Assembly (NCBI GenBank): GCA_964626205.1
Contig: CAZVED010000001.1
Span: forward strand, 64,961 to 128,960
Length of the DNA stretch: 64,000 nt
Direction of reading: 5' to 3'
Origin: an uncultured Gammaproteobacteria bacterium
Lineage (GTDB): Bacteria > Patescibacteriota > Patescibacteriia > SG8-24
The position numbers and the translations under genes are program-made. Shown here piece by piece: positions 11,968-61,653 of this stretch (position 1 is its first letter; the number at the start of each line of letters is the position of its first letter). The notes under the pieces were generated by a model, which did not search any database, was not told where the DNA came from, and saw only the letters and a list, made by a program, of their open reading frames with translations.

Positions 11968-12043
11968 TGGTGCGCCGGCCGGGGATCGAACCCGGGACCA
12001 TCAGCTTAAAAGGCTGTTGCTCTACCGGCTGAGCTACCGGCGC
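11968..12043 (-). tRNA. tRNA-Lys (anticodon UUU)
   Basis: Manual cloverleaf on the reverse complement: acceptor GCGCCGG/CCGGCGC, D-arm GCUC-AGCCGGUA-GAGC, anticodon loop CUUUUAA, T-arm CCGGG-UUCGAUC-CCCGG, encoded CCA. Confidence 0.9.
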
Positions 12044-29214: not shown

Positions 29215-29221
29215 TGTAGAT

Positions 29222-29256
29222 AAAAAGAAAAGCGGCTCATGCAGAGCCGCTTTTTG
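29222..29256. terminator. bidirectional intrinsic terminator
   Basis: aaaaagaaa-agcggctc-atgca-gagccgct-ttttg. Confidence 0.8.
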
Positions 29257-29273
29257 CGAAGTCGGTTTGACCT

Positions 29274-29396
29274 CTACTCCCACGGATAGCTTTGGAGAGC
29301 TTCGGGGACATTCGGTAAGTCGCGGACGATGATTTCTTGCTGGAACATCATGCCCGCGACCATACCGAGGAGGAAGACGACGGTGACGGTGCGCAT
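29274..29396 (-). CDS. small hydrophobic peptide (40 aa), translationally coupled to the upstream peptide
   Basis: ATG overlaps the upstream stop (TGATG). Sequence MRTVTVVFLLGMVAGMMFQQEIIVRDLPNVPEALQSYPWE, with one transmembrane helix. Confidence 0.35.
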   Translation of the reverse strand: MRTVTVVFLLGMVAGMMFQQEIIVRDLPNVPEALQSYPWE

Positions 29397-29533
29397 CAGA
29401 ACAGGACTCGCATCACCACGAAGATGGTGGGGATGGAGCAACTGCCGAGCAGGAGGAAGGTCTTCCAGTCGCTGACCGGTTGATAGTCGGCGCGGGTGGT
29501 GCCTTCTTCGAACACGTTCGTGAGATCTGCCAT
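29396..29533 (-). CDS. small membrane peptide (45 aa)
   Basis: Strong AAGGAG Shine-Dalgarno 8 nt before ATG 29533. Sequence MADLTNVFEEGTTRADYQPVSDWKTFLLLGSCSIPTIFVVMRVLF. Below the ORF track's length cutoff. The track's 104-aa ORF is a frame fusion of this and the next peptide. Confidence 0.45.
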   Translation of the reverse strand: MADLTNVFEEGTTRADYQPVSDWKTFLLLGSCSIPTIFVVMRVLF

Positions 29534-29578
29534 TGAATGAGCTCCTTCTGGTGGAAAATCCACCGGGGTACAACGATG

Positions 29579-29607
29579 AATGTATCACATTTTGATGCTT
29601 TTGTCAA
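29579..29607 (-). promoter_or_regulatory. promoter TTGACA-N17-TACATT (extended TGaTACATT) for the two-peptide operon
   Basis: Consensus -35 with exact 17-nt spacer on the minus strand. Confidence 0.5.
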
Positions 29608-29702
29608 TACTGACGAGCAAGCTTATGAAAGGCGAATTTGCCTCATTTAAGGCTGGTATGGCAGGGGATACCCTGAAGTTTCGTGAGTAGTGCCAGAGAC
29701 TC

Positions 29703-29731
29703 TTGACAGATTCTCCAATTCGTGCTATAGT
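29703..29731 (+). promoter_or_regulatory. near-consensus sigma70 promoter TTGACA-N17-TGCTATAGT
   Basis: TTGACA at 29703-29708, 17-nt spacer, TATAGT at 29726-29731 with a TGC extension. Confidence 0.6.
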
Positions 29732-29737
29732 CCTTTG

Positions 29738-30178
29738 TCAGGCTCGGAACGCACCTTTGACGAAAGACTCCTCCTGGGAAACGTTATGGAGGGGGACCCC
29801 ATCGGACGCATCGCTTCGGCGAAATGTCCATGGTGATGTGGAACGAGGAAGAGCCCGGTTTCGACTGGGGTCTTCCACGAAGAAGCATCGTTGACCAGAG
29901 CAGCGCTTCGGCGCCCACCTCCGGTTTCCGTCTCCATAACGTTCCTCATGAGTTCGGGCCACGAAAGCCTGTCGGTTGATGTCTGCCATTTGGCCGCCGT
30001 CATTTGGACTTATGAGGATTATTTTTCCACCGCGCCCTGCCACCCACCCCGCTCCCTCATCCTCTCGAAGGCTCTCATGATGGCGGTGCTGACCCCACCG
30101 CGTACCGTGAGATCCTCATCGCTTAGCTGCCGGCCAGGTAGCATCCCCTCCGTTGTCTAGACGGGGGGTGATTTTTTA
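29738..30178 (+). ncRNA. candidate structured non-coding RNA (~440 nt), identity unassigned
   Basis: Promoter-to-terminator unit without a credible ORF. UUCG tetraloop hairpins (catcgc-UUCG-gcgaaa, gcgc-UUCG-gcgc). Terminator stem ccccuccgu/acgggggg at 30145-30168 followed by U6. Confidence 0.45.
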
Positions 30179-30203
30179 TATGGTGTTTTTTGCTCTCGTC
30201 AGC

Positions 30204-30274
30204 GGTCTGTCAGAGAGGGCTTTCGGCAAGGCGGCTCCAACTTTAGCCTCGCCGAAAGCCCTCTCCGACAGACC
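30204..30274. repeat. long palindromic element (24-bp arms, 23/24 matched)
   Basis: ggtctgtcagagagggctttcggc ... gccgaaagccctctccgacagacc with a 23-nt loop. Confidence 0.6.
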
Positions 30275-30355
30275 ACACGAGGCCGCGTCAACTTGATGTC
30301 TCATCCCGTTCCGGTCAGATACAGAGCGAGGATTTTTGCGGACTGCCGTCCCTAC

Positions 30356-30461
30356 TGTGTCATTGCGAGGGTCGACGTACTCGTCGGCCCGAAGCAATCC
30401 CGTTTCGAGATTGCTCGGGATTGCTTCGGGGTCTGAGTACAGACCCACTCGCAATGACACA
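30356..30461. repeat. compound palindromic element with TGTGTCATTGCGAG core
   Basis: Outer 14-bp perfect IR tgtgtcattgcgag/ctcgcaatgacaca. Inner IR gcccgaagcaatcccg/cgggattgcttcgggg (16 bp) and gtactc/gagtac. Shares core and sub-arms with 23560-23600. Confidence 0.6.
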
Positions 30462-30472
30462 ATAAAATAGGC

Positions 30473-30501
30473 TTGAAGGTATCTTTTAAGCGTGTTACTG
30501 T
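30473..30501 (+). promoter_or_regulatory. putative promoter TTGAAG-N17-TACTGT for glyQS, giving a near-leaderless mRNA
   Basis: -10 box ends 10 nt before ATG 30511. No Shine-Dalgarno. Confidence 0.35.
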
Positions 30502-30510
30502 TCGTGAACT

Positions 30511-31893
30511 ATGCCAGCCTCCTCAATGGATCAGATTATCACTTTGTCGAAGCGCCGCGGCTTCGTTTTCCCTGGCTCCGACATCTACGGTGGCCTTGCG
30601 AACTCGTGGGACTACGGCCCACTCGGTGTCGAGCTCAAGAACAATCTCCGCGACTGGTGGTGGAAGCGGTTCGTGCACGGACGCCGCGACATGGTCGGTA
30701 TCGATGCCGCGGTCATCATGAACCCCAAGGTTTGGGAAGCGTCCGGTCACGTCGCTGGCTTTAACGATCCGCTCGTCGAGGACTTGAAGACCCACAAACG
30801 CTACCGCGCCGACCATCTTCTGGAGCAGGCGCTCAACCGATCCGTGGACGGCTTGTCGACCGCGGACCTCGCGAAGCTTATCGTCGACAACGACGTGAAG
30901 TCGCCGGACGGCAATCCGCTTTCCGAGCCGAAGGTGTTCAACCTGCTCATGCAGACCGAGCTCGGCAAGATCGAGGGCGAAAAGACGGCGGTGTACCTCC
31001 GCGGCGAAATCGCGCAGGCCATGTTCGTGAACTTCAAGAACATCACGGACACGCAGCGCGTGAAGCTGCCGTTCGGCATCGCGTCGGTCGGCAAGGCCTT
31101 CCGCAACGAGATCACGCCCGGTAACTTCATCTTCCGCACACTCGAGTTCGATTTGATGGAGTTCGAGTATTTCATCCGCGAGAAGGACTGGCAGGAACAG
31201 TTCGAGTTCTGGCTCGGCGAGATGCGTTCCTGGCTCAAAGAGATGGGTTTCAAAGACGAGAGCACGCGCGTGCGCGAGCATGAACAGGACGAGCTTTCCC
31301 ACTACAGCAGGCGCACGGTCGACATCGAGTACAAGACGCCGTTCGGTTGGAAGGAGATGTTCGGACTGGCCTACCGTACGGATTTCGACCTCAAGGCGCA
31401 CATGGAGCATTCCGGACAGGACATGCGGTATTTCGACCAGGAAGCCAACGAGCGCTTCATCCCGCATGTCATCGAGCCGACGTTCGGCTTGTCCCGCCTC
31501 GTGCTCATGACTATGATCGAGGCATACGATGAGGAAGAGGTAAGGGATACCGAAGGAAACGTCGAGACGCGCACGGTGATGCGCTTCCATCCGCGCATCG
31601 CGCCGTACAAGGCCGCGGTGCTGCCGCTTTTCAAGAAGGAAGGCCAGCCGGAGCGCGCAAAGGAAATCTGGGAGAAGCTCTCGCGCCGTTGGAACGTGGA
31701 ATACGACGAGACGCAGTCCATTGGCAAGCGCTACCGCCGTCAGGACGAGATCGGCACGCCGTTCTGCATCACGGTCGATTTCGACACGGCGAATGACGAC
31801 GCGGTCACTGTGCGCCATCGCGACGCCATGACGCAGGAACGCGTGAAGATCACGGAGCTTGAGGCGTACCTCGCTGAACGCATCGAGGCATGA
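30511..31893 (+). CDS. glyQS: glycyl-tRNA synthetase, dimeric (alpha2) class II type
   Basis: N-terminus QIITLSKRRGFVFPGSDIYGGLANSWDYGPLGVELKNN. 460 aa with class II motifs. Eukaryotic/archaeal-type GlyRS as found in many bacteria. Confidence 0.9.
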   Translation: MPASSMDQIITLSKRRGFVFPGSDIYGGLANSWDYGPLGVELKNNLRDWWWKRFVHGRRDMVGIDAAVIMNPKVWEASGHVAGFNDPLVEDLKTHKRYRADHLLEQALNRSVDGLSTADLAKLIVDNDVKSPDGNPLSEPKVFNLLMQTELGKIEGEKTAVYLRGEIAQAMFVNFKNITDTQRVKLPFGIASVGKAFRNEITPGNFIFRTLEFDLMEFEYFIREKDWQEQFEFWLGEMRSWLKEMGFKDESTRVREHEQDELSHYSRRTVDIEYKTPFGWKEMFGLAYRTDFDLKAHMEHSGQDMRYFDQEANERFIPHVIEPTFGLSRLVLMTMIEAYDEEEVRDTEGNVETRTVMRFHPRIAPYKAAVLPLFKKEGQPERAKEIWEKLSRRWNVEYDETQSIGKRYRRQDEIGTPFCITVDFDTANDDAVTVRHRDAMTQERVKITELEAYLAERIEA

Positions 31894-34776: not shown

Positions 34777-34852
34777 GCCACCTTAGCTCAGCTGGTAGAG
34801 CAACACTTTTGTAAAGTGAAGGTCCCGGGTTCGATCCCCGGAGGTGGCTCCA
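34777..34852 (+). tRNA. tRNA-Thr (anticodon UGU)
   Basis: Cloverleaf: acceptor GCCACCU/AGGUGGC, anticodon loop UUUGUAA, T-arm CCGGG-UUCGAUC-CCCGG, CCA encoded. Confidence 0.88.
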
Positions 34853-34902
34853 CTCACGTCCGCGATAAGGTCGACGACAATCGAAAACGGCATTTTTCAC
34901 GT

Positions 34903-34987
34903 GGGCCGGTACCCAAGCGGTCAAAGGGGGCGGACTGTAAATCCGCTGGCATCGCCTTCGAAGGTTCGAATCCTTCCCGTCCCACCA
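34903..34987 (+). tRNA. tRNA-Tyr (anticodon GUA), class II with long variable arm
   Basis: Anticodon stem-loop GCGGA-CUGUAAA-UCCGC, long variable arm, T-arm GAAGG-UUCGAAU-CCUUC, CCA encoded. One C:U mismatch in the acceptor stem. Confidence 0.85.
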
Positions 34988-34990
34988 CAT

Positions 34991-35066
34991 GCCGACGTAG
35001 CTCAGTTGGTAGAGCATCTCCATGGTAAGGAGAAGGTCACCGGTTCGATTCCGGTCGTCGGCTCCA
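34991..35066 (+). tRNA. tRNA-Thr (anticodon GGU)
   Basis: Acceptor GCCGACG/CGUCGGC, anticodon stem-loop UCUCC-AUGGUAA-GGAGA, T-arm ACCGG-UUCGAUU-CCGGU, CCA encoded. Confidence 0.88.
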
Positions 35067-40638: not shown

Positions 40639-40676
40639 AACGACCCGGCCGCGCATGGCGCATCGGGTCGTTTTTA
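40639..40676. terminator. bidirectional intrinsic terminator
   Basis: acgacccg-gccgcgcatggcgcat-cgggtcgt followed by ttttta. The minus-strand stop at 40674 lies inside it. Confidence 0.65.
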
Positions 40677-41199: not shown

Positions 41200-42015
41200 C
41201 TACTTGATGAGGACCTTTGTCCCGTACTGCGCGAACCAGTAGAGATGCTCCATGTCTGCAAGGCGTACGTTCACGCAGCCACCGGAGACCGGTGATGTGC
41301 CGAACTTGTCGTGCCAGTACGCACTATGGATGTAGTAGCGCCAACCGCGCCAGGTGGTGAACTGGAGGTTGTACTTCGTGTTCGGGTAGTCGTAGCCCGG
41401 ACCGACGTAGCGCTTCACGGGCACTTTCGCCATGACCTCGAACTCGCCATGCGGCGTGGGAGTGGACCTTTTTCCGGTAGAGACAGGAAGGACGCCGAGC
41501 ACGACATCACCGAAGGAGTAGGTGAGCGTGAGTCCTTTGTCGTCGATAACGATGAGTTTTTCACGTATCGATAAACCGTCGGAGAGCGGGTCGTAGCTCG
41601 CGGCGACCTCCGTGCCATCGAGGTAGAGGTCGTTATCGGTGTCGGGATTCATCAGGTTGGTACCAATCTTCAGCTCCCAGGCATCGACGAGGTAATCCTT
41701 GTCGGAATCGACGTCCATGAGGGTCTTGTTGTCGCCGAAGCGGGGAGAGAAGCCTCTGGCGACCTCGTCGCCATCGCTGAATCCGTCACCGTCAGTATCG
41801 GCATTGTACGGGTCCGTAAAATGGACGCAGGCTTCCGTGGCGTCATCGAGGCCATCGCCATCGCTGTCGAGAGCAGCGCGGGCCGCCCAGGTATCCGCGA
41901 CGCATTCCACAGGCATGGTGTAGGCGAGGACTACACCTACCGAACAAACAAAAAACCAAGCGGTTACAGCGCTGGTCGCAGCAAGAAGCTTCATTTTGTT
42001 TGTTTTTGTTTGCAT
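41200..42015 (-). CDS. L,D-transpeptidase (YkuD domain) with N-terminal thrombospondin-type-3-like Ca-binding repeats
   Basis: Signal peptide. Four D-x-D-x-D-G-x-x-D-x-x-E repeats (DSDGDGLDDATE, DTDGDGFSDGDE, DVDSDKDYLVDAWE, DTDNDLYLDGTE). Catalytic HSAYWHDKFGTSPVSGGCVNV. Confidence 0.75.
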   Translation of the reverse strand: MQTKTNKMKLLAATSAVTAWFFVCSVGVVLAYTMPVECVADTWAARAALDSDGDGLDDATEACVHFTDPYNADTDGDGFSDGDEVARGFSPRFGDNKTLMDVDSDKDYLVDAWELKIGTNLMNPDTDNDLYLDGTEVAASYDPLSDGLSIREKLIVIDDKGLTLTYSFGDVVLGVLPVSTGKRSTPTPHGEFEVMAKVPVKRYVGPGYDYPNTKYNLQFTTWRGWRYYIHSAYWHDKFGTSPVSGGCVNVRLADMEHLYWFAQYGTKVLIK

Positions 42016-42076: not shown

Positions 42077-42850
42077 TTAATTCTTCATTCCCACGCCCGT
42101 ACGCAGCAGGTAGAGGTTCGTCCAGACGAGCGCAACGATGACGGCAGTGATGAGCGCGATGCTTTGAGCGACCGGGATGCCAGCCGAGCCGAAGAAGCCG
42201 TAGCGGAAGCCGTCGACCATGTAGAGGATGGGGTTGGCTTTGGAGACGTTCTGCCACAGCGGCGGGAGCTGGCTCACGGAATAGAACACGCCGCCGAGGT
42301 AGGTGAGCGGAATGAGGACGAACGTGGAGAAGATGCTCGTATCATCGAACTTCTTCGCGAAGACGGCGTTGAGGAAGCCGGCAAGCGAGAAGAGGACACT
42401 CGTGAGCACGAGGAAGAGCAGGACGATCCACGGGTGTTGTACGACCGGTTGCGCGAAGACGGCGGAGACGGCATAGACGATGCCGCCGGTCACTGTGCCA
42501 CGCACGACGCCGCCGGAGACGTAGCCTGCGAGCATGACCCAGATGGGTGTCGGTGAGACGAGGATCTCGTCGATGTTCCGCATGAACTTCGCGCCGAAGA
42601 ACGAGCTCACGACGTTCATGAAGCTCGACTGGATGACGGCCATCATGACGAGGCCGGGGATGATGAACGTCATGTACGGGACGCCGTCCACGATGCCGAC
42701 GCGGGAGCCGATGAACGCGCCGAAGATGAGGAAGTAGAGCGACTGCGTGATGACCGGCGGCAAGAGCGTCTGCGTCCAGATACGGAAGATGCGATACGTC
42801 TCCTTGCGGAGGATGGTTAGGTACGCGTTTCGGGCGATGGTCCAGCGCAT
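42077..42850 (-). CDS. ABC-2 family transporter permease
   Basis: Six transmembrane helices with ABC-2 (DrrB/NodJ-like) architecture. ATG 42850 lies 1 nt after the ATPase stop. Confidence 0.75.
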   Translation of the reverse strand: MRWTIARNAYLTILRKETYRIFRIWTQTLLPPVITQSLYFLIFGAFIGSRVGIVDGVPYMTFIIPGLVMMAVIQSSFMNVVSSFFGAKFMRNIDEILVSPTPIWVMLAGYVSGGVVRGTVTGGIVYAVSAVFAQPVVQHPWIVLLFLVLTSVLFSLAGFLNAVFAKKFDDTSIFSTFVLIPLTYLGGVFYSVSQLPPLWQNVSKANPILYMVDGFRYGFFGSAGIPVAQSIALITAVIVALVWTNLYLLRTGVGMKN

Positions 42851-42851
42851 A

Positions 42852-43757
42852 CTATTTGGCGATGGTGGAAAGGTAGAGCTCTTCGAGGCGGTTCTGCGCA
42901 TGCGCGATGTCGACGATTGTGAGGTCTGCCGCGTGGATCTTCGTGAAGATGGCGTCGAGCGTTTCGCCGGAGGTAAGGTCCATGCGGATGACGGTGTCCG
43001 TGATGCGTTCCGCGCCGAGCGCGCGAAGCTGGTCGTCGGTCGGCGTCGTGGAGAGGGTCACCCGATACCCTCGTCCGTCGGCAGCAGAGACGAGGTTGGA
43101 GACCGGTCCTTGGCGCACGACAGAACCGGCCTGGATGATGGTCATTTCTTTGCAGAGTTGCTCCACTTCTTCTAAATAGTGCGTGGTGAGAAGAATGGTG
43201 GTCCCTGCGGCGTTAAGTTTGCGGAGGTAGTCCCACATGCCGCGACGCAGCTCTACGTCAACGCCGGCGGTCGGCTCGTCGAGGATGAGGAGCTTCGGCC
43301 GGTGCACGAGCGCGCGAGCGATCATGAGACGCCGCTTCATGCCGCCAGAGAGCGTCATGGATTTCATGTCGCGCTTGTCCCAAAGGCCGAGGTCGCGAAG
43401 TACCTCGTCGGCACGTGACTCCGCATCGCGGCGCGTCATGCCGTAGTAGCCGCCTTGCGTAATGACGATGTCGCGGACAGTCTCGAAGATGTTGAAGTTG
43501 AATTCTTGCGGGACGATGCCAATCATGGCGCGTGTGGCGTCCGGATCCTCATCTTGATTGATGCCGAACACGGAAACGCTGCCGGCGCTTTTCGTGACAA
43601 GACCGACGGTGATATTGATGAGCGTCGTCTTCCCTGCGCCATTCGCACCAAGGAGCGCGGTGAACGCGCCTTCTTTAACGGTAAGGTCGACGCCCTTGAG
43701 CGCCTCCGTCCCGCCGGCATAGGTTTTTTTGAGTCCTTTGATATCGAGTGCGTGCAT
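42852..43757 (-). CDS. ABC transporter ATP-binding protein (DrrA/CcmA-like, 301 aa)
   Basis: Walker A GANGAGKTT, signature LSGGMKRR, Walker B LILDEPT. Start set at ATG 43757; the track's upstream extension is rejected. Confidence 0.85.
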   Translation of the reverse strand: MHALDIKGLKKTYAGGTEALKGVDLTVKEGAFTALLGANGAGKTTLINITVGLVTKSAGSVSVFGINQDEDPDATRAMIGIVPQEFNFNIFETVRDIVITQGGYYGMTRRDAESRADEVLRDLGLWDKRDMKSMTLSGGMKRRLMIARALVHRPKLLILDEPTAGVDVELRRGMWDYLRKLNAAGTTILLTTHYLEEVEQLCKEMTIIQAGSVVRQGPVSNLVSAADGRGYRVTLSTTPTDDQLRALGAERITDTVIRMDLTSGETLDAIFTKIHAADLTIVDIAHAQNRLEELYLSTIAK

Positions 43758-43772
43758 ACAGAGTTGGGGAGA

Positions 43773-43806
43773 TGGCAAACCTCCGCAGAATGGCGGAGGT
43801 TTGCCA
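43773..43806. promoter_or_regulatory. perfect 14-bp hairpin in the 5' leader of the ABC exporter operon
   Basis: tggcaaacctccgc-agaatg-gcggaggtttgcca, 16 nt upstream of the ATPase ATG on the minus strand. No U-tract, so not a terminator. A further perfect hairpin cgtgccgtcg-aagattc-gacggcacg lies at 43931-43956. Confidence 0.35.
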
Positions 43807-43959
43807 GGAATCGGGTCGGAAGAACCGATAGAGGTTTCGAATCTTGGCAGAGCACGGGTGACGCTGCGAGAGGTCTCCACAAGCCGCGCGCCATGCGCGC
43901 GGAGCAGTGGAGATACGCAGCGGCAGGACCCGTGCCGTCGAAGATTCGACGGCACGAGG

Positions 43960-44532
43960 TTATTCCACGATCAACTGACCGACCATGCCGTTGGCGCGGT
44001 GGGCGCCGACGCTGCAGTAGTACTCGAATGAGCCCTTCTTGTCTGCCACGAACGTCACCTCGGTCACGCCTCCGGTCTGCACCTGTGCGGTAGCGGCGGA
44101 GAACTCATCGACGACCCAGTCATGGAAGCCGCTCTCGCTCGTGAAGACGACGCGGACCGTCTGCCCCTCCTTTACGCGGATGACTTCCTTGTCAAAAGCG
44201 AAGTTCGTGCCAGAAACCTCGATGGTCACGAGATCTGGATCGATGTCCGCTTCCATGGAAGTGTCGACGTCGGCAGCGGCGCCAGCAGCGTCCGTCGTGA
44301 CGGATCCCTCCAGCATGATTCCGCCGGCAGCAGCAGCGTCATCCGTGGCATCGGTTTCTTCCATCGAGCCATCGGTAGCATCTTCGGTGGGCATCATCGC
44401 GTCGTCGCCTTCTTCGGTAACGACAACGTCGTCAGCCGGAGCTGTGACAGGAGCCTTGCGCGTGACGGCGTAGCCGATGGCACCGATGACGATGACGGCA
44501 CCGACGAGGAACAGAATAGACGTATTCTTCAT
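43960..44532 (-). CDS. membrane-anchored cupredoxin (type-1 blue copper) domain protein
   Basis: N-terminal transmembrane helix, acidic linker, C-terminal ...FHDW...YYCSVGAHRANGMVGQLIVE giving His, Cys-x4-His-x4-Met ligands. Confidence 0.65.
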   Translation of the reverse strand: MKNTSILFLVGAVIVIGAIGYAVTRKAPVTAPADDVVVTEEGDDAMMPTEDATDGSMEETDATDDAAAAGGIMLEGSVTTDAAGAAADVDTSMEADIDPDLVTIEVSGTNFAFDKEVIRVKEGQTVRVVFTSESGFHDWVVDEFSAATAQVQTGGVTEVTFVADKKGSFEYYCSVGAHRANGMVGQLIVE

Positions 44533-56592: not shown

Positions 56593-57459
56593 ATGTTACC
56601 CTCGGGATACTCTTATAGTATGAAGCCGCACCCGAAAAAACGCCCGCCGATCTGGGAGAAACGTCGTCGCAAAGCCGATATCGCTTCGGGTAAGATCGCA
56701 GCGCCAAAACCGAAGACGACCTCTTGGGGAAGCGTCGCCGAATGGTACGACAAGATGCTCAAGGAAGATACTGGCACCTTCCAGAAGGAGCTTATCTTGC
56801 CGAATCTCAAGCGCCTCATGGCCATTGTGCCAGGGGACCGTGTCGCCGACCTCGCCTGCGGGCAGGGGTTCTTCGCGGCAGCATTCGCCGAAGACGGCGC
56901 CGAGGTCGTCGGTGCCGACCTTGCTCCGGAGCTCATCGAGCGGGCGCGTGTCAACGCGCCGAGCGCGACGTTTCATGTCGCCCCCGCGCACCACGTCCCC
57001 AGCATCCCGTCGGCGTGGGCGTCGCAGGTGACGGTTATCCTTGCCATCCAGAATATCGAGGATGTCCGCGCGACGTTCGCCGAGTGCGCGCGCATCCTGC
57101 GCCCGGGCGGACGGTTGCATGTCGTCATGAATCACCCCGCGTTCCGCATCCCGAAGCGATCGTCATGGGGATGGGACGAGAAGGAGCGGACGCAGTACCG
57201 CCGTACGGACGGCTACCTCACGGAATCCAAGGTGCCCATCGAGATGCATCCCGGCTCCGACCCGACCGTGCGCACCTGGACACTGCACCGCCCGTTGCAG
57301 TTCTACGTGAAAGCTTTCGCACGGAGTGGGTTCGCGGTTACGAACCTGGAAGAGTGGGTCTCTCACAAGAAGAGCGATTCCGGGCCGCGCGCGCCGGAAG
57401 AGAACCGTACGCGCGCAGAGTTCCCGATGTTTCTCTACCTGGAGGCGAAAAAAGCGTGA
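56593..57459 (+). CDS. class I SAM-dependent methyltransferase
   Basis: Motif I VADLACGQGFFAAAF, motif II region, C-terminal substrate domain. Start ambiguous between ATG 56593 and ATG 56620. Confidence 0.65.
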   Translation: MLPSGYSYSMKPHPKKRPPIWEKRRRKADIASGKIAAPKPKTTSWGSVAEWYDKMLKEDTGTFQKELILPNLKRLMAIVPGDRVADLACGQGFFAAAFAEDGAEVVGADLAPELIERARVNAPSATFHVAPAHHVPSIPSAWASQVTVILAIQNIEDVRATFAECARILRPGGRLHVVMNHPAFRIPKRSSWGWDEKERTQYRRTDGYLTESKVPIEMHPGSDPTVRTWTLHRPLQFYVKAFARSGFAVTNLEEWVSHKKSDSGPRAPEENRTRAEFPMFLYLEAKKA

Positions 57460-57482
57460 CCAATCGGTCACGCTTTTTTTGT
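57446..57482. terminator. bidirectional intrinsic terminator containing both convergent stop codons
   Basis: aaaaaa-gcgtgacc-aatc-ggtcacgc-ttttttt. TGA 57457-57459 (plus gene) and TGA 57468-57470 (minus gene) sit in opposite stem arms. Confidence 0.8.
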
Positions 57483-58980
57483 TAGTGGTAACTCAATCGA
57501 GAAGGTCGAACCTGCCCCTTCCTTCGATACGAAACTGAGCGTGCCGCCGTGGGCTTCGATATAGTACTTGGCGACATAGAGACCGAGACCGGAGGCATCC
57601 GGTTCCATGATGGAGGCGTTCGATCCACGGAAGAAACGCAGGAAGACCCTTTTCTGTTCCAACATCGGGATTCCGACACCGGTATCAGCGACCTCGATAC
57701 GGACCTTGTCGTCGTTCTTTTTCATCTGCACCGTGATCGTTCCGCCGGAATGGGAATATCGCATGGCATTCTCGATGAGCTTGGCGAGCGCGGCACGGAA
57801 CTTCGCGGCGTCCACCATCACGGTCGGGAGATCGATCTCTTTCCAGATGGCTTGGCACGTCAGGGAGTTGTTCTCGCAACGTTTCGCGAATTCCCCGATA
57901 ACCCCAAGGACGAGGCTTTCCAGATCGACCTCTTCCTTTTCGAGGGTGATTCGGCCTTCTTCGATATCGATGGCGGTCAGGAGGTCGCTGAGGCGGCGTA
58001 GGATCTCGGTCGTCGCCTCATAGCTTACGCGGACAAGCGATTCGTTTTCCTTGTTGATCTTGGCAAATTCGCTCGAGAGGAGCATTTCGAGGTTCCAGCG
58101 CACGGCATTGAGCGGTGTGCGGAATTGGTGGGAGACGATCTGGATGAACTTGCTTTTGAGGACATCGAGTTCCTTGATGCGCAATTCGTCCGCGTGGTGT
58201 TTCTCCAAGGATTCCTTCTCGAGCGTGATATCCTCGGTGAAACCGGCAGCGCGGTATGGTTCGTTTTTCTCGTTCAAGACAGGGTAGGAACGGAATCGTA
58301 TCCACCGTAAGGTCCCATCGGGTCGACGAATCCTAACCTCCTCGGAGGACGGCTTGCCGGCAATGCCGTTCTGTGTGGCGCGGAGCATGAGCGGTTGATC
58401 CTCCTCCACGATCGCCGCGAACCATTTTTCCGGATTCGCGTACGCCTCGGCGATGGGGAAGCCGAAGATCGTCTCGAATGACGGACTGAGATAGAGGAGC
58501 TTGCCGGTATGCGGATCAACCAAGAAGAACAGCTCTTTGAGATTTTCGGTTATCTGTTGAAGTTGCTGCTCGCTCTCCCTGATGTCGCTGAGCAGCTTTT
58601 TTTTGGTCGCTGACATCCATTTCGACGCCGACGAAACCAGAAAGTTCTTCGCCGTCGATAATGACAGGTGTCATCCAGATTTCCGCGGTGTACGTTTCTC
58701 CGCTCATGCGCGTCTGCTGGAGTTCGCCATGGAACGGTTGTTTTTCGACCTTGATTGCCTGCCACATGCGGTCGTAGAACTCCGCCGGCATCTTTCCGCC
58801 CCAAAGGCTCAGTGGCTTACCGATCATCTCTTTCCGATCATATCCGGTGATCCTTTGTGCGGCCGGGTTGGCGTAGACGATGATACCGTCCGCATCGGCG
58901 AAGATCATGTGAACGGGGGAGAATTCCGCGGCAATGCGGAACTTGTCCGCGTCGAACGTGACGTCGTTGTTGTTGGTCAT
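57468..58980 (-). pseudogene. PAS-PAS sensor histidine kinase interrupted by a frameshift at an A8 homopolymer (sequencing error, phase variation or pseudogene)
   Basis: ORF 58980-58516 (PAS domain, ends ...VEMDVSDQKKAAQ...) and ORF 58616-57468 (MSATKKKLLSDIRE..., second PAS, H-box SHQFRTPLN, HATPase GGTLSFVSKEGAGSTF) overlap in different frames. Removing one A from the run at 58597-58604 (minus-strand A8) fuses them as ...DVSDQKK-LLSDIRESEQQ... Confidence 0.6.
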
Positions 58981-59795
58981 GGAGATGGCGATAGGGTTTC
59001 TGAATCGAGGAGAGAAGGGGTGGCCGCTTCCACGACCTCGTCGGCGAAGACCACCAATCGTTCCGTGTACTGTCGCTCACTCTGGTCCCACGTTCCGGAG
59101 CAGGTGACGAGATTGAGGTGGGCTTTTCCATCCGTCGAAAAGAAGACCTCGGTCGCGTCCGCTGCGGCGTCGTATTCGCGGATTCCGCGTACGACGAACG
59201 AAGTGCTTTTACCGTCGCCTGCTTGTACGGTGATAATGTCGCCGGGCTTGAGCGTGTGCAGCTTGGCAAAGACCGCATGCGCGCTGTACATCCAACTGAC
59301 GTGTCCGGCGATGACTGCGCTCCCGACCTCTCCCGGGCGTGGGCCGAGCGCGTACCAAGCGGTGTCTGCAGGGCGTTTGGGAACGTCCATGGAGCCGTCG
59401 GCAGCCAAGCCGACCGCTCCGATCGGCGCGTTGACGCCGATTGCGGGAATGAGGAGGCGGGATGGCGCGGAGGTGTCAGCGGTTGCGGTGGTTGGTGGAG
59501 GAACAGGTGAAGAGGTAGGTGAGACAGCGCGTGCCGTGACGACGGCTTGTGGAGTCGGAACGGTTTCTGGTACGGAAGGGAGCGGAACGTCATGCGTGTC
59601 GAGGTCTTCCAGTACAAGCGGGGCGGGTAGGGAGACGGGCATCGTGAGGAGCTCACGATGGTCTTCGAGTGCGACGGGTTGCAGTATCGTATCCAAGAGA
59701 AAAGTCGGCCAGATGAGCGCATTGAGCACGACCAAAAAGATCGCGGAGGCTTCCAGAACCCGATACGTCTTTTGATGCGGTCCTTTTCTATGCAT
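58977..59795 (-). CDS. sortase (class E/C-like transpeptidase)
   Basis: N-terminal transmembrane helix, proline-rich linker. Catalytic His in VIAGHV, Cys in LNLVTCSG (TLxTC motif), Arg downstream. Stop overlaps the PAS ATG (ATGA). Confidence 0.75.
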   Translation of the reverse strand: MHRKGPHQKTYRVLEASAIFLVVLNALIWPTFLLDTILQPVALEDHRELLTMPVSLPAPLVLEDLDTHDVPLPSVPETVPTPQAVVTARAVSPTSSPVPPPTTATADTSAPSRLLIPAIGVNAPIGAVGLAADGSMDVPKRPADTAWYALGPRPGEVGSAVIAGHVSWMYSAHAVFAKLHTLKPGDIITVQAGDGKSTSFVVRGIREYDAAADATEVFFSTDGKAHLNLVTCSGTWDQSERQYTERLVVFADEVVEAATPSLLDSETLSPSP

Positions 59796-59805
59796 ACCTT
59801 TTTGA

Positions 59806-59840
59806 AAGAGAGGTCGGACGAACGACGTCCGACCTCTCTT
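59806..59840 (-). promoter_or_regulatory. perfect 14-bp hairpin between the LPXTG-protein and sortase genes (possible attenuator/processing site)
   Basis: agagaggtcggacg-aacg-cgtccgacctctct, 10 nt upstream of the sortase ATG. No clean U-tract on the minus strand. Confidence 0.4.
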
Positions 59841-59862
59841 TGCCGTTTCTTCTCCTGATGAC

Positions 59863-61653
59863 TTACGCCGTCCGCTTCTTGCGCAATGCTGCGAAGAGGA
59901 GCGAGGCGACGACGATTCCTGCGAGGAGGCTCCAAGCGAGCATGTTCCCCGGAGAGAGGGAGCCCGTGTTCGGGAGCGTCGGGACGACGACCGGAGCGAC
60001 GGCGACGACGACTGTCGCGATCGCGAAGTCGCGGGCGGTCAGGCCATTGGCATCACCGGCCGCAACGACGGTGTTCACTGTCGTCTGCGTGAGGTTCGTG
60101 CTGCAGGTGTAGACCCAGGACTCCGTCGGCTCCAACAGCGCGTTGCCGTTGGCATCGCCAGAGACGTAGCTCACCGGGCCGCACTTGTCGTCCGTGAGGC
60201 GGACGTTCTGCAGCGGCACGGTACCCGGGTTGGTGACCCTATTGGTGTACGTGACCATTCCACCGCCAGCGAGGAGTGTCAGCGGGTTCGGGACCTTGGT
60301 CACGTTAATCAGCGGAGGAACAATCGGTGCGCCGACGACGACTGTGGCGCTCGCGATGTCGGTCGCAGAAAGGCCATTCGCCCAACCCTTCGCGACGATG
60401 GTGTTGGTGTGCGTTTCTGTGAGCTGGGTGAAGCAGTGATACACCCACGTCTCATTCACGTCGAGCTGATTGTCGTTGTCGGTGTCACCGGAGGTCCGGT
60501 TGATAGGGCTGCAAGTGTCTCCGATCATTGAGATGTCGGTCACTGGGACGGTTCCGATGTTGCGGAGCGTGTAGGTGTAGTCCACGAGACCTGGACCGCC
60601 AGGCAAGGAGAGCGGGCTCGGCACCTTCACGACATCAATCAACGGCGGGACAGGGGGAGCCACTGGTGCTACTGGCTCGGCGATGTCGTTGTTCGTGATA
60701 ATGCAGAACTTGTGCTCATTAGCACCGAGGCTGATACCGCCGGTTGCGTTGCAATCACCGGAGAACGACTGTGTGTACCCGGCAGTGTTCGTTTCTGTGG
60801 CGTAGTAGAGGGATGCCGATGCAGGGAATACCGTTGCGCTGCCGGATACGACGGATACGCCGGATACGGACAAGGGGAAGTCGACGACGTGCTTGGTACC
60901 GCCGCCATCGTTGATGACGTGCTTAACGACGGTGATGCTCGACTGTTGCGAACCGCCGCCCGGCGCTTGTGCGCACGTCGGCTCGGTAATCTGCGAGTTG
61001 ATCATCGTCACCTGGGCGATGTGCGACAAGGCGCGTCCTTTCAAGGTCGCGGAATCCCCAAGGGAGATGAGCGAGGTGTTGGTGATGATGGTTCCTTCCA
61101 TGTGCGACCCGGCGCCGATGGTCATGGAATCCGCAACTGCCCAGAATACGTCGCTCGCGCAGGCACCGTTCGTCAGGACCATCTGTCCAGTGACCGGAGT
61201 CGTGGAGGAGCCGAGGAAGACGTAGACACCAGCACCGTCGAGCGTAAGGGTGCCGTTCAGTGAGGTTGCAGCAACATTATAGGTGCCCGGTCCAATCGTG
61301 TTGACCCCAGCAAGATCGAGAATGACGCCAGGACCTTGGGCTGTGAGTGCACCATAGGCGTTGCTGATGTCAGTCTGGAGCGCGGCCGGAGTCGGGGCGA
61401 TGATCGATCCATCGACCTGTGTCACGTCGTCGAGGTTCGTGATGCTTGGCAAGGAATCAGCACCGACGTTGCCCCAGTGATGCGTCGTTCCGACGTTGGA
61501 ATTATTCGTTACCCCTGCCTTACCCCAAGCCGAGAAAGGAGCGGCGGTACCAAGGTTTGGTGCCGTTGCCGCAGAAACAGAAATCGGCGTGACAACGCCG
61601 AAGAAGAACGAGAGCACCGCAGTTGCTAGCGAGAGCTTATTGAGTATTTTCAC
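59863..61653 (-). CDS. LPXTG-anchored surface protein: DUF3494/ice-binding-like N-domain plus two ~100-aa DUF11/CARDB-like repeats
   Basis: Signal peptide. C-terminal LPNTG, hydrophobic helix, RKKR. Tandem repeats (I/V)(D/N)V(V/T)KVP(S/N)PL(S/T)L...(Y/V)TYT..N.GTVP...W.VY.C.T.LT. GTG start. Confidence 0.75.
   Translation of the reverse strand: MKILNKLSLATAVLSFFFGVVTPISVSAATAPNLGTAAPFSAWGKAGVTNNSNVGTTHHWGNVGADSLPSITNLDDVTQVDGSIIAPTPAALQTDISNAYGALTAQGPGVILDLAGVNTIGPGTYNVAATSLNGTLTLDGAGVYVFLGSSTTPVTGQMVLTNGACASDVFWAVADSMTIGAGSHMEGTIITNTSLISLGDSATLKGRALSHIAQVTMINSQITEPTCAQAPGGGSQQSSITVVKHVINDGGGTKHVVDFPLSVSGVSVVSGSATVFPASASLYYATETNTAGYTQSFSGDCNATGGISLGANEHKFCIITNNDIAEPVAPVAPPVPPLIDVVKVPSPLSLPGGPGLVDYTYTLRNIGTVPVTDISMIGDTCSPINRTSGDTDNDNQLDVNETWVYHCFTQLTETHTNTIVAKGWANGLSATDIASATVVVGAPIVPPLINVTKVPNPLTLLAGGGMVTYTNRVTNPGTVPLQNVRLTDDKCGPVSYVSGDANGNALLEPTESWVYTCSTNLTQTTVNTVVAAGDANGLTARDFAIATVVVAVAPVVVPTLPNTGSLSPGNMLAWSLLAGIVVASLLFAALRKKRTA

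What the first reader, a model, noticed from the sequence alone, without database searches (positions are those of the whole stretch)
57468..61653. Sortase / LPXTG surface protein / PAS-PAS histidine kinase operon; kinase split by +1 A in an A8 run
- **Operon.** On the minus strand, an LPNTG-anchored surface protein (DUF3494/ice-binding-like head plus two CARDB/DUF11-like repeats) is followed by a perfect 14-bp hairpin. Next comes a sortase gene whose stop overlaps (ATGA) a PAS-domain ORF.
- **Frameshift.** The PAS ORF runs into a second PAS-HisKA-HATPase ORF in another frame. The switch occurs exactly at an 8-A homopolymer (58597-58604). Deleting one A gives a continuous ~505-aa PAS-PAS sensor kinase (...VEMDVSDQKK-LLSDIRESEQQ...).
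- **Open alternatives.** This is a sequencing or assembly error, a genuine pseudogene, or slipped-strand phase variation.
- **Missing partner.** No cognate response regulator lies adjacent in this window.
Basis: seen in the sequence. Interest (0 to 1): 0.6.

Follow-up and report, generated by a model that had tools for sequence, protein, structure and literature searches.

The report
Frameshifted sensor kinase behind sortase–adhesin pair
A sensor-kinase gene sitting behind an adhesin and its anchoring enzyme (sortase) is broken by one extra A in a run of A's, and because a close relative has deleted the same kinase, this looks like ordinary gene loss or possibly an assembly error.

Summary
The minus strand carries four elements in order:
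- an LPNTG-anchored surface protein (59863-61653)
- a conserved hairpin
- a class-F-like sortase (58977-59795)
- a PAS-PAS-HisKA-HATPase kinase, starting at an ATGA overlap, split at A8 (58597-58604)

**The kinase was one gene.** Removing one A gives a 503-aa protein. It aligns without a break with intact relatives of 58-62% identity through the junction DQKK|LLSD. One relative has an in-frame A7 at the same site and another has A5.

**New evidence from relatives.**
- A close relative (L164, 79-87% nucleotide identity) keeps the adhesin, hairpin, sortase, terminator and convergent methyltransferase. Only a scar of the kinase remains, about 1.45 kb having been lost between GTTCGAC microhomologies.
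- Another relative (L163) goes straight from the sortase to the next housekeeping genes.
- The conserved module is adhesin plus sortase. The kinase is a dispensable, lineage-specific passenger.

**State of the assembly.** This is the only frame break found in the 64-kb window. The kinase shows no other lesion and no rate acceleration.

**Verdict.** Most likely a recent, genuine +1 A inactivation (about 0.5), possibly leaky through slippage. An assembly error at the longest homopolymer (about 0.3) cannot be excluded without reads. Phase variation is possible but unsupported. Interest is low to moderate.

The parts
59863..61653 (-). Sortase substrate. A 596-aa surface protein with a signal peptide, an Ice_binding-like (DUF3494) head, a middle beta-rich domain, two CLIPPER_2/DUF7507 stalk repeats, then LPNTG, a hydrophobic segment and RKKRTA.
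   Evidence: ORF and translation. Pfam PF11999 E 8e-23, PF24346 E 1.5e-12, Gram_pos_anchor 17.6 bits. TIGR01451 DUF11-type repeat. 84% aa identity to the L164 homolog and 61% to the L001 homolog.
59805..59841 (-). Perfect 16-bp hairpin with a 5-nt loop between the adhesin and sortase genes. Probably a partial terminator or an mRNA 3'-end stabiliser that sets the adhesin:sortase ratio (inference).
   Evidence: Found by three tools. -33.7 kcal/mol, z = -5.4. Stems are identical in L164, and L163 has a compensatory A-U to G-C pair.
58977..59795 (-). Class-F-like sortase, 272 aa, with an N-terminal membrane anchor and catalytic H165/C232/R246.
   Evidence: PF04203 E 6.5e-23. NF033748 class F scores 139.5 bits, below the 166 cut-off. 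H165, C232 and R246 are invariant in the alignment. Homologs are named class F sortase of Uhrbacteria/Patescibacteria.
58605..58980 (-). 5' part of the kinase gene (PAS1, residues 1-125 of the reconstructed protein). Its ATG overlaps the sortase stop as ATGA. As assembled, this frame runs on to a premature stop at 58516-58518 (154-aa ORF).
   Evidence: Unbroken alignment to P0002, P0003 and P0004.
58597..58604 (-). The A8 homopolymer, which is the frameshift site. A7 would read GAC CAA AAA AAG CTG = D Q K K L.
   Evidence: Only A/T run of 8 or more in the window. The Viterbi frame switch falls at 58605/58608. Orthologous sites are an in-frame A7 (L001) and A5 (L002).
57468..58596 (-). 3' part of the kinase gene in the +1 frame: PAS2, HisKA (H-box SHQFRTPL) and HATPase_c. 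It contains no further lesion.
   Evidence: PF08447, PF00512 and PF02518 hits. Invariant catalytic columns are retained. No rate acceleration.
57448..57479 (.). Perfect 14-bp hairpin flanked by an A-tract and a T-tract. It is a bidirectional intrinsic terminator shared by the kinase and the convergent methyltransferase, and marks the end of the transcription unit.
   Evidence: sequence. Conserved in L164.
58951..58957 (-). Upstream copy of the 7-bp microhomology GTTCGAC. It corresponds to the 5' edge of the kinase deletion seen in relative L164.
   Evidence: Sequence. L164 alignments.
57505..57511 (-). Downstream copy of GTTCGAC. It corresponds to the 3' edge of the roughly 1,446-bp deletion in L164. 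The last 13 kinase codons are retained there as a scar.
   Evidence: Sequence. L164 alignments.
56593..57459 (+). Convergent class I SAM methyltransferase. This is context, not part of the operon. It serves as the synteny anchor showing that L164 lacks the kinase.
   Evidence: Pfam Methyltransf_11. 87% nucleotide identity to L164.

Best explanation
**What is there.** The locus is a three-gene transcription unit on the minus strand. It most likely belongs to a Patescibacteria/CPR bacterium, inferred from the names attached to homologs.

**Core module.** The conserved core is an LPNTG adhesin-like surface protein plus its dedicated class-F-like sortase. A conserved hairpin separates the two genes.

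**The kinase.** Fused to the sortase stop by an ATGA overlap is what was ancestrally one gene. It encoded a soluble, cytoplasmic PAS-PAS-HisKA-HATPase sensor kinase of 503 aa, with no response regulator nearby.

**The lesion.** The two conserved lysines of the inter-PAS linker are encoded within an A7 tract (CAA AAA AAG). One extra A (A8) moves the ribosome out of frame after PAS1.
- The assembled sequence therefore encodes a 154-aa PAS fragment.
- It also leaves an untranslated, or poorly translated, kinase body.

**Most likely cause.** I judge this a real, recent replication-slippage mutation in a lineage where the kinase is dispensable. A sister lineage has deleted the same gene between 7-bp microhomologies, and another relative lacks it.

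**Possible leakiness.** RNA-polymerase slippage on A8, or a +1 tRNA-Lys slip, could still yield a minor fraction of full-length kinase. Inactivation may therefore be partial.

**Shown versus inferred.**
- Shown: the anatomy, the single-gene ancestry, the site, the in-frame tracts in relatives, and the deletion scar in L164.
- Inferred: that the extra A is in the DNA rather than in the assembly, that the gene is dispensable, and that expression is leaky.
For: **One ancestral gene**
- The 503-aa reconstruction aligns end to end with P0002 (62%), P0003 (58%) and P0004 (48%). K127 and K128 are invariant at the junction.
- The orthologous DNA has an in-frame A7 (L001: GAC CGA AAA AAA CTG) or A5 (L002).

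**Frame switch**
- It falls exactly at the run.

**Kinase dispensable and being lost**
- L164 has 79-87% nucleotide identity across the adhesin, hairpin, sortase, terminator and methyltransferase.
- It keeps only about 5 first codons and 13 last codons of the kinase.
- L163 has sortase, then GTPase, then HU, with no kinase.
- Other adhesin-sortase modules have unrelated downstream genes.

**Assembly not generally indel-prone**
- 87 homopolymers of 5 nt or longer lie in coding sequence, and this is the only frame break found in 64 kb.

**Event is recent**
- There are no further stops.
- All catalytic motifs are kept.
- The relative-rate test with outgroup P0004 gives 35 vs 37 and 35 vs 33 unique changes downstream of the shift.

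**Precedent**
- Blochmannia visC is intact in one genome, absent from a second, and carries a single poly(A) indel in a third (PMC3017870).
- Productive slippage on A8/A9 runs is documented (PMC1088944).
Against: - No reads and no second assembly of this population are available. All of its proteins are singletons among about 15 billion. The locus is absent from the genome and metagenome collections.
- A consensus error at the longest homopolymer would look identical.
- The complete lack of secondary decay fits an intact (A7) gene equally well.
- Loss in the sister lineage shows dispensability there, not necessarily here.
Confidence: 0.5

Rival explanations
1. Sequencing or assembly artefact. 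The true genome has A7 and an intact 503-aa kinase, and the consensus caller added one A in the longest homopolymer of the region.
For: - The break sits in the single longest A/T run of the window.
- The gene is otherwise perfect: no other lesion, no rate acceleration, all motifs kept.
- Modern long-read consensus errors concentrate in the longest homopolymers (my own knowledge).
- The sequencing technology of the source is unknown to me.
Against: - No other frame break occurs among 87 coding homopolymers of 5 nt or longer. These include three A/T7 runs and two G/C6 runs. The assembly is therefore not generally indel-prone.
- Short-read consensus rarely miscalls A7 as A8 (my own knowledge).
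- An independent relative has lost the same gene. A genuine lesion here is therefore unsurprising.
Confidence: 0.3
2. Slipped-strand phase variation. The A7/A8 tract is a contingency switch that reversibly turns the kinase ON and OFF in the population. The assembly captured the OFF majority.
For: - The tract lies in coding sequence at a site where A7 is in frame, and an A-run is also present in a relative.
- The gene is undamaged apart from the 1-nt change.
- There is precedent for two-component genes switched by short A/T tracts: C. jejuni flgR and flgS (PMC3930126).
- AAA/CAA codon use at the site is the minority choice in this genome. AAA makes up 24% of Lys codons and CAA 29% of Gln codons.
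Against: - An A7/A8 tract is short for a contingency locus.
- One A8 per 64 kb is what composition predicts.
- The tract follows simply from a conserved KK dipeptide, and it is only A5 in another ortholog.
- The sister lineage lost the gene outright rather than switching it.
- No length heterogeneity can be observed with the data at hand.
Confidence: 0.12
3. Programmed recoding. A8 is the functional state. RNA-polymerase slippage (A8 to A7 in the mRNA) or a +1 ribosomal slip on AAA-AAG makes a fixed ratio of a stand-alone PAS protein and the full-length kinase.
For: - Productive transcriptional slippage on 8-9 A's is documented: IS elements, about 10% rescue in apoB, and Thermus dnaX (PMC1088944).
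- A +1 slip of tRNA-Lys from AAA to AAG would give exactly the DQKK-LL product (what the sequence shows).
Against: - The intact homologs aligned (P0002, P0003, P0004 and others) are continuous at this site, and the two orthologous loci examined at the DNA level are in frame. The out-of-frame arrangement is therefore not conserved.
- The 33-residue out-of-frame tail has no counterpart in homologs.
- No stimulatory structure lies downstream (z = -1.16).
- A -1 slip on A_AAA_AAA leads to a nearby stop.
Confidence: 0.04
4. Genuine functional split. A stand-alone PAS protein (154 aa) and a shorter PAS-HisKA-HATPase kinase (from ATG 58616 or TTG 58523) now work as two separately translated proteins.
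For: - An ATG lies four codons upstream of the run in the new frame.
- This genome rarely uses Shine-Dalgarno sites (8 of 50 genes). The missing SD is therefore not disqualifying.
- The collection's gene caller did call both pieces.
Against: - The ORFs overlap by 101 nt. The coding signal switches at the run, not at a start codon.
- No relative has this architecture.
- The tail of the PAS ORF is out-of-frame kinase sequence.
Confidence: 0.04

Closest known systems
Homopolymer-frameshifted genes in reduced genomes (Blochmannia/Buchnera poly(A) indels, e.g. visC; PMC3017870)
   Same: - A single indel in a poly(A) tract of an otherwise intact gene.
- The same gene is absent from a sister genome.
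- No rate acceleration.
- The same ambiguity between very recent erosion and rescue by transcriptional slippage.
   Different: - Those tracts are usually 10 A's or more, in AT-rich endosymbionts, and slippage was shown experimentally.
- Here the tract is A8 in a 60.6% GC genome, and nothing has been measured.
Phase-variable two-component genes (Campylobacter jejuni flgS/flgR A/T tracts, PMC3930126; Bordetella bvgS poly-C, from my own knowledge)
   Same: A short homopolymer inside the coding sequence of a signalling gene, where a change of one nucleotide truncates the protein.
   Different: - In those cases reversible switching was demonstrated in cultures and hosts.
- Here no tract-length heterogeneity is observable, and the sister lineage shows outright deletion.
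Sortase-substrate gene pairs with a dedicated sortase (class F sortases of Actinobacteria/Patescibacteria; CLIPPER/CLIPPER_2 stalk adhesins, PMC12617251)
   Same: - An LPXTG protein with isopeptide-type stalk domains lies directly upstream of its own sortase.
- The module recurs in L164, L165/L166 and L167.
   Different: - The sortase scores below NCBI's class F cut-off (139.5 against 166 bits).
- The head is an Ice_binding-like beta-helix.
- A kinase is translationally coupled to the sortase only in this lineage.
- Orthologous kinases in L001 and L002 instead follow surface proteins that end in a PG_binding_1 domain.
Soluble multi-PAS HisKA kinases (HK853/WalK-type catalytic core; NifL/LOV-like PAS)
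   Same: - A PAS-PAS-DHp-CA architecture.
- Best solved matches are 4u7n, 2c2a/3dge (HK853) and VicK for the core, and 2gj3 (NifL) and 6ph3 (LOV-HK) for the PAS region.
   Different: - No LOV cysteine motif.
- The ligand is unknown.
- No partner response regulator lies in the 64 kb.

Membership tests
HisKA-type sensor histidine kinase | DHp (HisKA) domain with a phospho-acceptor His | tested here: met
   PF00512 E 6.5e-12. The H-box is SHQFRTPL, with H284 invariant across homologs.
HisKA-type sensor histidine kinase | HATPase_c catalytic domain with N, G1, F and G2 boxes | tested here: met
   PF02518 E 2e-23. N404, D432xGxG, F449 and G464LGL are invariant columns.
HisKA-type sensor histidine kinase | Uninterrupted reading frame joining the sensor and the kinase core | tested here: not met
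   As assembled, the frame breaks at A8 58597-58604. It is restored only by removing one A.
HisKA-type sensor histidine kinase | Cognate response regulator | tested here: not met
   No receiver domain in the 64-kb window (tblastn with five receivers, best E 0.13). None lies next to the orthologs in L001 or L002. The rest of the genome is not available.
Sortase (class F) | Sortase fold with the catalytic His, Cys (TLxTC-like) and Arg | tested here: met
   PF04203 E 6.5e-23. H165, C232 (LVTCSG) and R246 are invariant in 7 sequences.
Sortase (class F) | Score above the curated class F model cut-off | tested here: not met
   NF033748 scores 139.5 bits against a cut-off of 166. It is still far better than any other class: GN 30 bits, E 26 bits.
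LPXTG cell-wall-anchored protein | N-terminal signal peptide, then a C-terminal LPXTG, a hydrophobic segment and a basic tail | tested here: met
   The sequence shows MKILNKLSLATAVLSFFFGVVTPISVSA... and ...LPNTGSLSPGNMLAWSLLAGIVVASLLFAALRKKRTA. Pfam Gram_pos_anchor scores only 17.6 bits against a cut-off of 20.
LPXTG cell-wall-anchored protein | Actual cleavage and anchoring by the adjacent sortase | not testable with these tools
   This needs biochemistry. It is supported only by the conserved adjacency in L164, L165, L166 and L167.
Phase-variable contingency locus (simple-sequence repeat) | Tract-length polymorphism within or between populations, with reversible ON/OFF | not testable with these tools
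   No reads and no strain-level relatives are available.
Phase-variable contingency locus (simple-sequence repeat) | Repeat tract longer or more frequent than composition predicts | tested here: not met
   One A8 was found against 0.40 expected, and 31 of 100 shuffles have at least one. The orthologous tract is A7 or A5.
Programmed frameshift / transcriptional slippage gene | Out-of-frame arrangement conserved among homologs | tested here: not met
   The intact homologs aligned are continuous at the site, and the two orthologous loci checked at the DNA level are in frame.
Programmed frameshift / transcriptional slippage gene | Slippery motif, with a stimulator for ribosomal frameshifting | tested here: inconclusive
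   A8 is slippery for RNA polymerase (PMC1088944). No downstream structure was found (z = -1.16).
Pseudogene (early stage) | ORF disrupted relative to intact orthologs | tested here: met
Pseudogene (early stage) | Further lesions or relaxed constraint after the first hit | tested here: not met
   No other stops. Relative-rate tests give 35 vs 37 and 35 vs 33.
Pseudogene (early stage) | Independent loss of the gene in close relatives | tested here: met
   Deletion scar in L164. The gene is absent in L163.

The most novel reading that the evidence does not exclude
The A7/A8 tract could be a genuine contingency switch, or a slippage-tuned attenuator. It would set the level of an orphan cytoplasmic PAS-PAS kinase that is translationally coupled to a sortase-adhesin module in a Patescibacteria/CPR episymbiont. 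That would be stochastic ON/OFF control of a surface-attachment regulator in a lineage where phase variation has not been described, as far as my searches found.
Probability: 0.1. Interest if true: 0.55.

Novelty: new member of a known kind. Interest (0 to 1): 0.25.

Why it matters
**Annotation.** The two ORFs should be annotated as one frameshifted sensor-kinase gene, not as two proteins. The collection's gene caller recorded them as a 154-aa PAS protein and a 351-aa kinase.

**Biology.** Together with L164 and L163, the locus gives three snapshots of gene loss in a small-genome lineage. The same kinase is intact in more distant relatives, hit once here, and reduced to a microhomology-bounded scar in a sister. 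The adhesin-sortase pair and its hairpin stay conserved throughout.

**If the extra A is real.** This organism has probably lost, or strongly turned down, a cytoplasmic sensor that was co-transcribed with its cell-surface anchoring machinery.

**If it is an error.** The locus serves as a reminder that a single homopolymer can create false split genes in metagenome-assembled genomes.

Tried and rejected
- **Exact look-ups.** I looked up the window's kinase and sortase proteins in the contig index to find the source or a second assembly. Neither is on record.
- **Cluster look-up.** The five window proteins found in the collection are singletons from one 143-kb NCBI contig. Neither the A7 (503-aa) product nor the 382-aa first-ATG ORF is in the collection.
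- **Genome scan.** The genome-contig scan with a subfamily alignment did not find the source. The best hit has 42% identity.
- **Metagenome scans.** A DNA pattern allowing A7-A10 gave no hit. The protein-based scan gave at best 38% identity. No strain-level comparison is therefore possible.
- **Other frameshifts as a sign of an error-prone assembly.**
  - Overlapping ORF pairs at 40674/41200, 42077/42852 and 54044/54408 are different genes.
  - The Viterbi scan flagged only 58605 and 43791.
  - The site at 43791 is explained by a stop at 43960 and a low-scoring N-terminus.
- **Ribosomal frameshift stimulator downstream of the run.** None found.
- **Rfam on the locus.** Only sub-threshold hairpin noise.
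- **Response regulator search.** Negative.
- **Shine-Dalgarno test for an internal start.** Uninformative, because only 8 of 50 genes show an SD.
- **Context of more distant kinase homologs (L083, L009, L091, L003).** No surface-protein linkage was found. The adjacency holds only for near relatives.
- **Literature on mismatch repair or sortases in CPR.** Nothing usable.

Full report
**1. What is in the sequence**

On the minus strand of 57468-61653 there are four ORFs.

- **59863-61653 (596 aa).**
  - It starts with a signal-peptide-like N-terminus.
  - It matches Ice_binding/DUF3494 (PF11999, E 8e-23, residues 45-223) and DUF7507 (PF24346, E 1.5e-12). It also has a DUF11-type repeat (TIGR01451).
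  - It ends in LPNTG, a hydrophobic stretch and RKKRTA.
  - A second, roughly 50% identical copy of the stalk repeat lies at residues 338-440.
  - DUF7507 was recently renamed CLIPPER_2. It is described as an isopeptide-bonded stalk domain of fibrillar adhesins (PMC12617251).
- **58977-59795 (272 aa).**
  - This is a sortase (PF04203, E 6.5e-23).
  - It is closest to class F (NF033748, 139.5 bits, below the 166-bit cut-off; every other class scores 30 bits or less).
  - H165, C232 and R246 are invariant.
- **58516-58980 (154 aa).** A PAS ORF. Its ATG overlaps the sortase TGA as ATGA.
- **57468-58616 (382 aa).** PAS-HisKA-HATPase, one nucleotide forward in frame.

The switch point is an A8 run at 58597-58604. 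It is the only A/T run of 8 or more in the 64-kb window, which is 60.6% GC. Removing one A gives a 503-aa PAS-PAS-HisKA-HATPase protein.

- The hairpin after the adhesin gene has 16 perfect pairs (59805-59841, loop of 5 nt, -33.7 kcal/mol, z = -5.4).
- The perfect 14-bp hairpin is elsewhere, at 57448-57479. There it is flanked by A- and T-tracts and serves as a bidirectional terminator between the kinase and a convergent methyltransferase.

**2. Is it more than chance?**

One A8 in this window is not remarkable by itself. Shuffles give 0.40 on average, and 31 of 100 contain at least one. The coincidence is what matters.

- A codon-usage Viterbi decoder was trained on other genes of the window. 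It places the frame change at 58605/58608.
- Of 22 same-strand frame changes it reports, 20 sit within 42 nt of the upstream gene's stop codon.
- The exceptions are this site (89 nt) and 43791. The latter is explained by a stop at 43960 and a weakly coding N-terminus.
- There are 87 homopolymers of 5 nt or longer inside coding sequence, and only this one breaks a frame. The assembly is therefore not generally prone to indels.

**3. It was one gene**

- The reconstructed protein aligns without a break with its best intact homologs: P0002 (62%), P0003 (58%), P0004 (48%) and others.
- The alignment runs straight through the junction (…VEMDVSDQKK|LLSDIRESEQQ… against …LEIDISDRKKLLGDLGESERR…). The two lysines are invariant.
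- At the DNA level the orthologous site is GAC CGA AAA AAA CTG in L001, an in-frame A7. In L002 it is GAC CGG AAA AAG CTG, an A5.
- The tract is therefore a by-product of a conserved KK dipeptide, and A7 is the in-frame state here. A7 to A8 is the most parsimonious event.
- The kinase has no transmembrane segment. Its catalytic core resembles HK853/WalK-type kinases, and its PAS region resembles NifL/LOV-type PAS domains without the LOV cysteine motif.

**4. Relatives change the picture**

The source population has no strain-level relatives in any collection I could reach.
- The five window proteins found in the roughly 15-billion-protein collection are singletons from one 143-kb NCBI contig.
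- Exact look-ups and both collection scans failed to find the source.

The sortase search led to informative neighbours.

*L164 (Logan SRR22000202).*
- It is 79-87% identical at the nucleotide level across the adhesin 3' end (LPNTG retained, 84% aa), the hairpin, the sortase, the terminator and the convergent methyltransferase.
- Between the sortase stop and the terminator it keeps only GTGACCCGCGACGTCCG, the first few kinase codons still overlapping the sortase stop.
- This is joined to TCGACCTTCTCGATCGACCTGCCGCTAAAAGAAAAAACGTGA, the last 13 codons.
- In the window the corresponding break points are two copies of GTTCGAC (58951-58957 and 57505-57511), 1,446 bp apart.
- This is a microhomology-bounded deletion scar. 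The ancestor of both lineages therefore had sortase-ATGA-kinase, and the sister lineage has lost the kinase.

*L163 (sortase 65% aa).* It runs from the sortase through 70 nt of spacer into the EngB-like GTPase and HU genes. In the window those genes lie 4 kb further on, after the kinase, the methyltransferase and DUF4153.

*L165/L166 and L167.* They carry the same Ice_binding + CLIPPER_2 adhesin followed by a sortase, with unrelated downstream genes.

*L001 and L002.* The orthologous intact kinases follow large surface proteins that end in a PG_binding_1 domain instead of LPXTG, with no sortase.

The conserved functional unit is therefore adhesin plus sortase. The kinase travels with cell-surface genes in this clade but is dispensable.

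The hairpin is under selection. Its stems are identical in L164, where the 5-nt loop reads as its reverse complement. L163 carries a compensatory A-U to G-C change plus a G-U wobble.

**5. How recent, and how dead?**

- Downstream of the shift there is no further stop, and all H, N, G1, F and G2 box residues are intact.
- With P0004 as outgroup, the window's lineage has 35 unique substitutions against 37 (P0002) and 33 (P0003). There is no acceleration.
- The lesion is therefore either very young, tolerated because expression is rescued, or not real.
- Rescue is plausible in principle.
  - RNA polymerase slips productively on runs of 8-9 A's. Examples are IS elements with 8 A's, about 10% full-length apoB from an A8 allele, and Thermus dnaX (PMC1088944).
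  - A +1 shift of tRNA-Lys from AAA to the overlapping AAG would recreate exactly DQKK-LL (from the sequence).
- A -1 slip is unproductive, because a stop follows after 17 codons. There is no downstream stimulatory structure (z = -1.16).
- The internal ATG at 58616 has no Shine-Dalgarno sequence. Only 8 of 50 genes in the window have one, so this is uninformative.

**6. Interpretation**

*Best explanation (about 0.5).* A genuine, recent +1 A replication-slippage mutation has inactivated an orphan cytoplasmic PAS-PAS kinase, or strongly reduced its expression. The lineage is shedding this gene. The closest published parallel is Blochmannia visC. It is intact in one genome, absent from another, and carries a single poly(A) indel without rate acceleration in a third. 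The same two readings were offered there (PMC3017870).

*Main rival (about 0.3).* A consensus error in the longest homopolymer. Nothing in the sequence can exclude it. The clean state of the other 86 coding homopolymers argues against a generally error-prone assembly, but not against an error confined to the longest run.

*Phase variation (about 0.12).* It has precedent in two-component genes, namely C. jejuni flgS and flgR (PMC3930126). Three points weaken it here:
- the short tract;
- its explanation by a conserved KK dipeptide;
- the outright deletion in the sister lineage.

*Programmed recoding and a functional two-gene split (about 0.04 each).* Both are contradicted by the intact, continuous homologs aligned at this site.

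**7. Comparison and novelty**

Each element is of a known kind:
- a dedicated sortase with its LPXTG/CLIPPER_2 adhesin;
- a soluble multi-PAS HisKA kinase;
- a homopolymer frameshift.

The organism is probably a member of Patescibacteria/CPR. This is inferred from homologs named Uhrbacteria, Parcubacteria, Paceibacterota and Patescibacteria, not shown directly.

What is specific here is the three-state series for one kinase across relatives (intact, frameshifted, deletion scar). The swap between covalent (LPXTG plus sortase) and non-covalent (PG_binding_1) wall attachment in the surface proteins that precede the orthologous kinases is also specific.

This is a tidy example, not a surprise. I rate interest at about 0.25 and novelty as a new member of a known kind.

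Noticed in passing
window 29215-30510: A 1.3-kb stretch without a credible ORF lies upstream of a glycyl-tRNA-synthetase-like gene (30511-31893 +). It is dense in long inverted repeats: 29-nt arms at 30204-30232/30246-30274 (93% complementary), 15-nt perfect arms at 30388-30402/30416-30430, and 30-nt arms at 30353-30382/30435-30464. Rfam gives only sub-threshold hairpin noise. It remains unexplained. It could be a structured RNA or a decayed region.
   Followed up: partly
window 59805-59841; L164 911-946; L163 ~93-129: The intergenic hairpin has identical stems in L164, but its 5-nt loop is the exact reverse complement (TCGTT vs AACGA). This looks as if the palindrome's centre had been inverted. 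L163 shows a compensatory pair change.
   Followed up: partly
L001 2-2719, L002 1-1914 versus window 59863-61653: The surface proteins upstream of the orthologous kinases end in a PG_binding_1 domain (non-covalent wall binding). The window and L164 proteins end in LPNTG with a dedicated sortase. L001 shares the middle domain and both CLIPPER_2 repeats with the window protein (61% over 317 aa). This points to a swap of the wall-attachment mode on a shared scaffold.
   Followed up: partly
L167 2223-2981 and 5001-5753: A related locus carries two sortase genes flanking the Ice_binding + CLIPPER_2 adhesin gene.
   Followed up: no
window, whole: A Shine-Dalgarno-like motif (GGAG/GAGG/AGGA) lies upstream of only 8 of 50 longer genes. 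This suggests largely SD-independent initiation in this organism.
   Followed up: no
window 12670-15009 (+): A 779-aa ORF with no Pfam hit. Its third-position GC is atypically flat, and it competes with an antisense ORF at 12703-13794. Which strand codes was not resolved.
   Followed up: no
window 57468-58980: The kinase gene is less GC-rich (0.55) than its neighbours (0.59-0.64). It uses AAA for 42% of its lysines against 24% elsewhere. It holds two of the four longest coding A/T runs in the window, the second being an A7 at 57474-57480 just before its stop.
   Followed up: partly
window 11968-12043 (-); 34777-35066 (+): A tRNA-Lys(UUU) gene, which would read the AAA/AAG codons at the slippery site, and a tRNA Thr-Tyr-Thr cluster.
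   Followed up: no
window 41200-42015 (-): A YkuD L,D-transpeptidase with a bacterial TSP3 repeat lies next to an ABC-2 transporter pair (42077-43955). These are further cell-envelope genes in the window.
   Followed up: no
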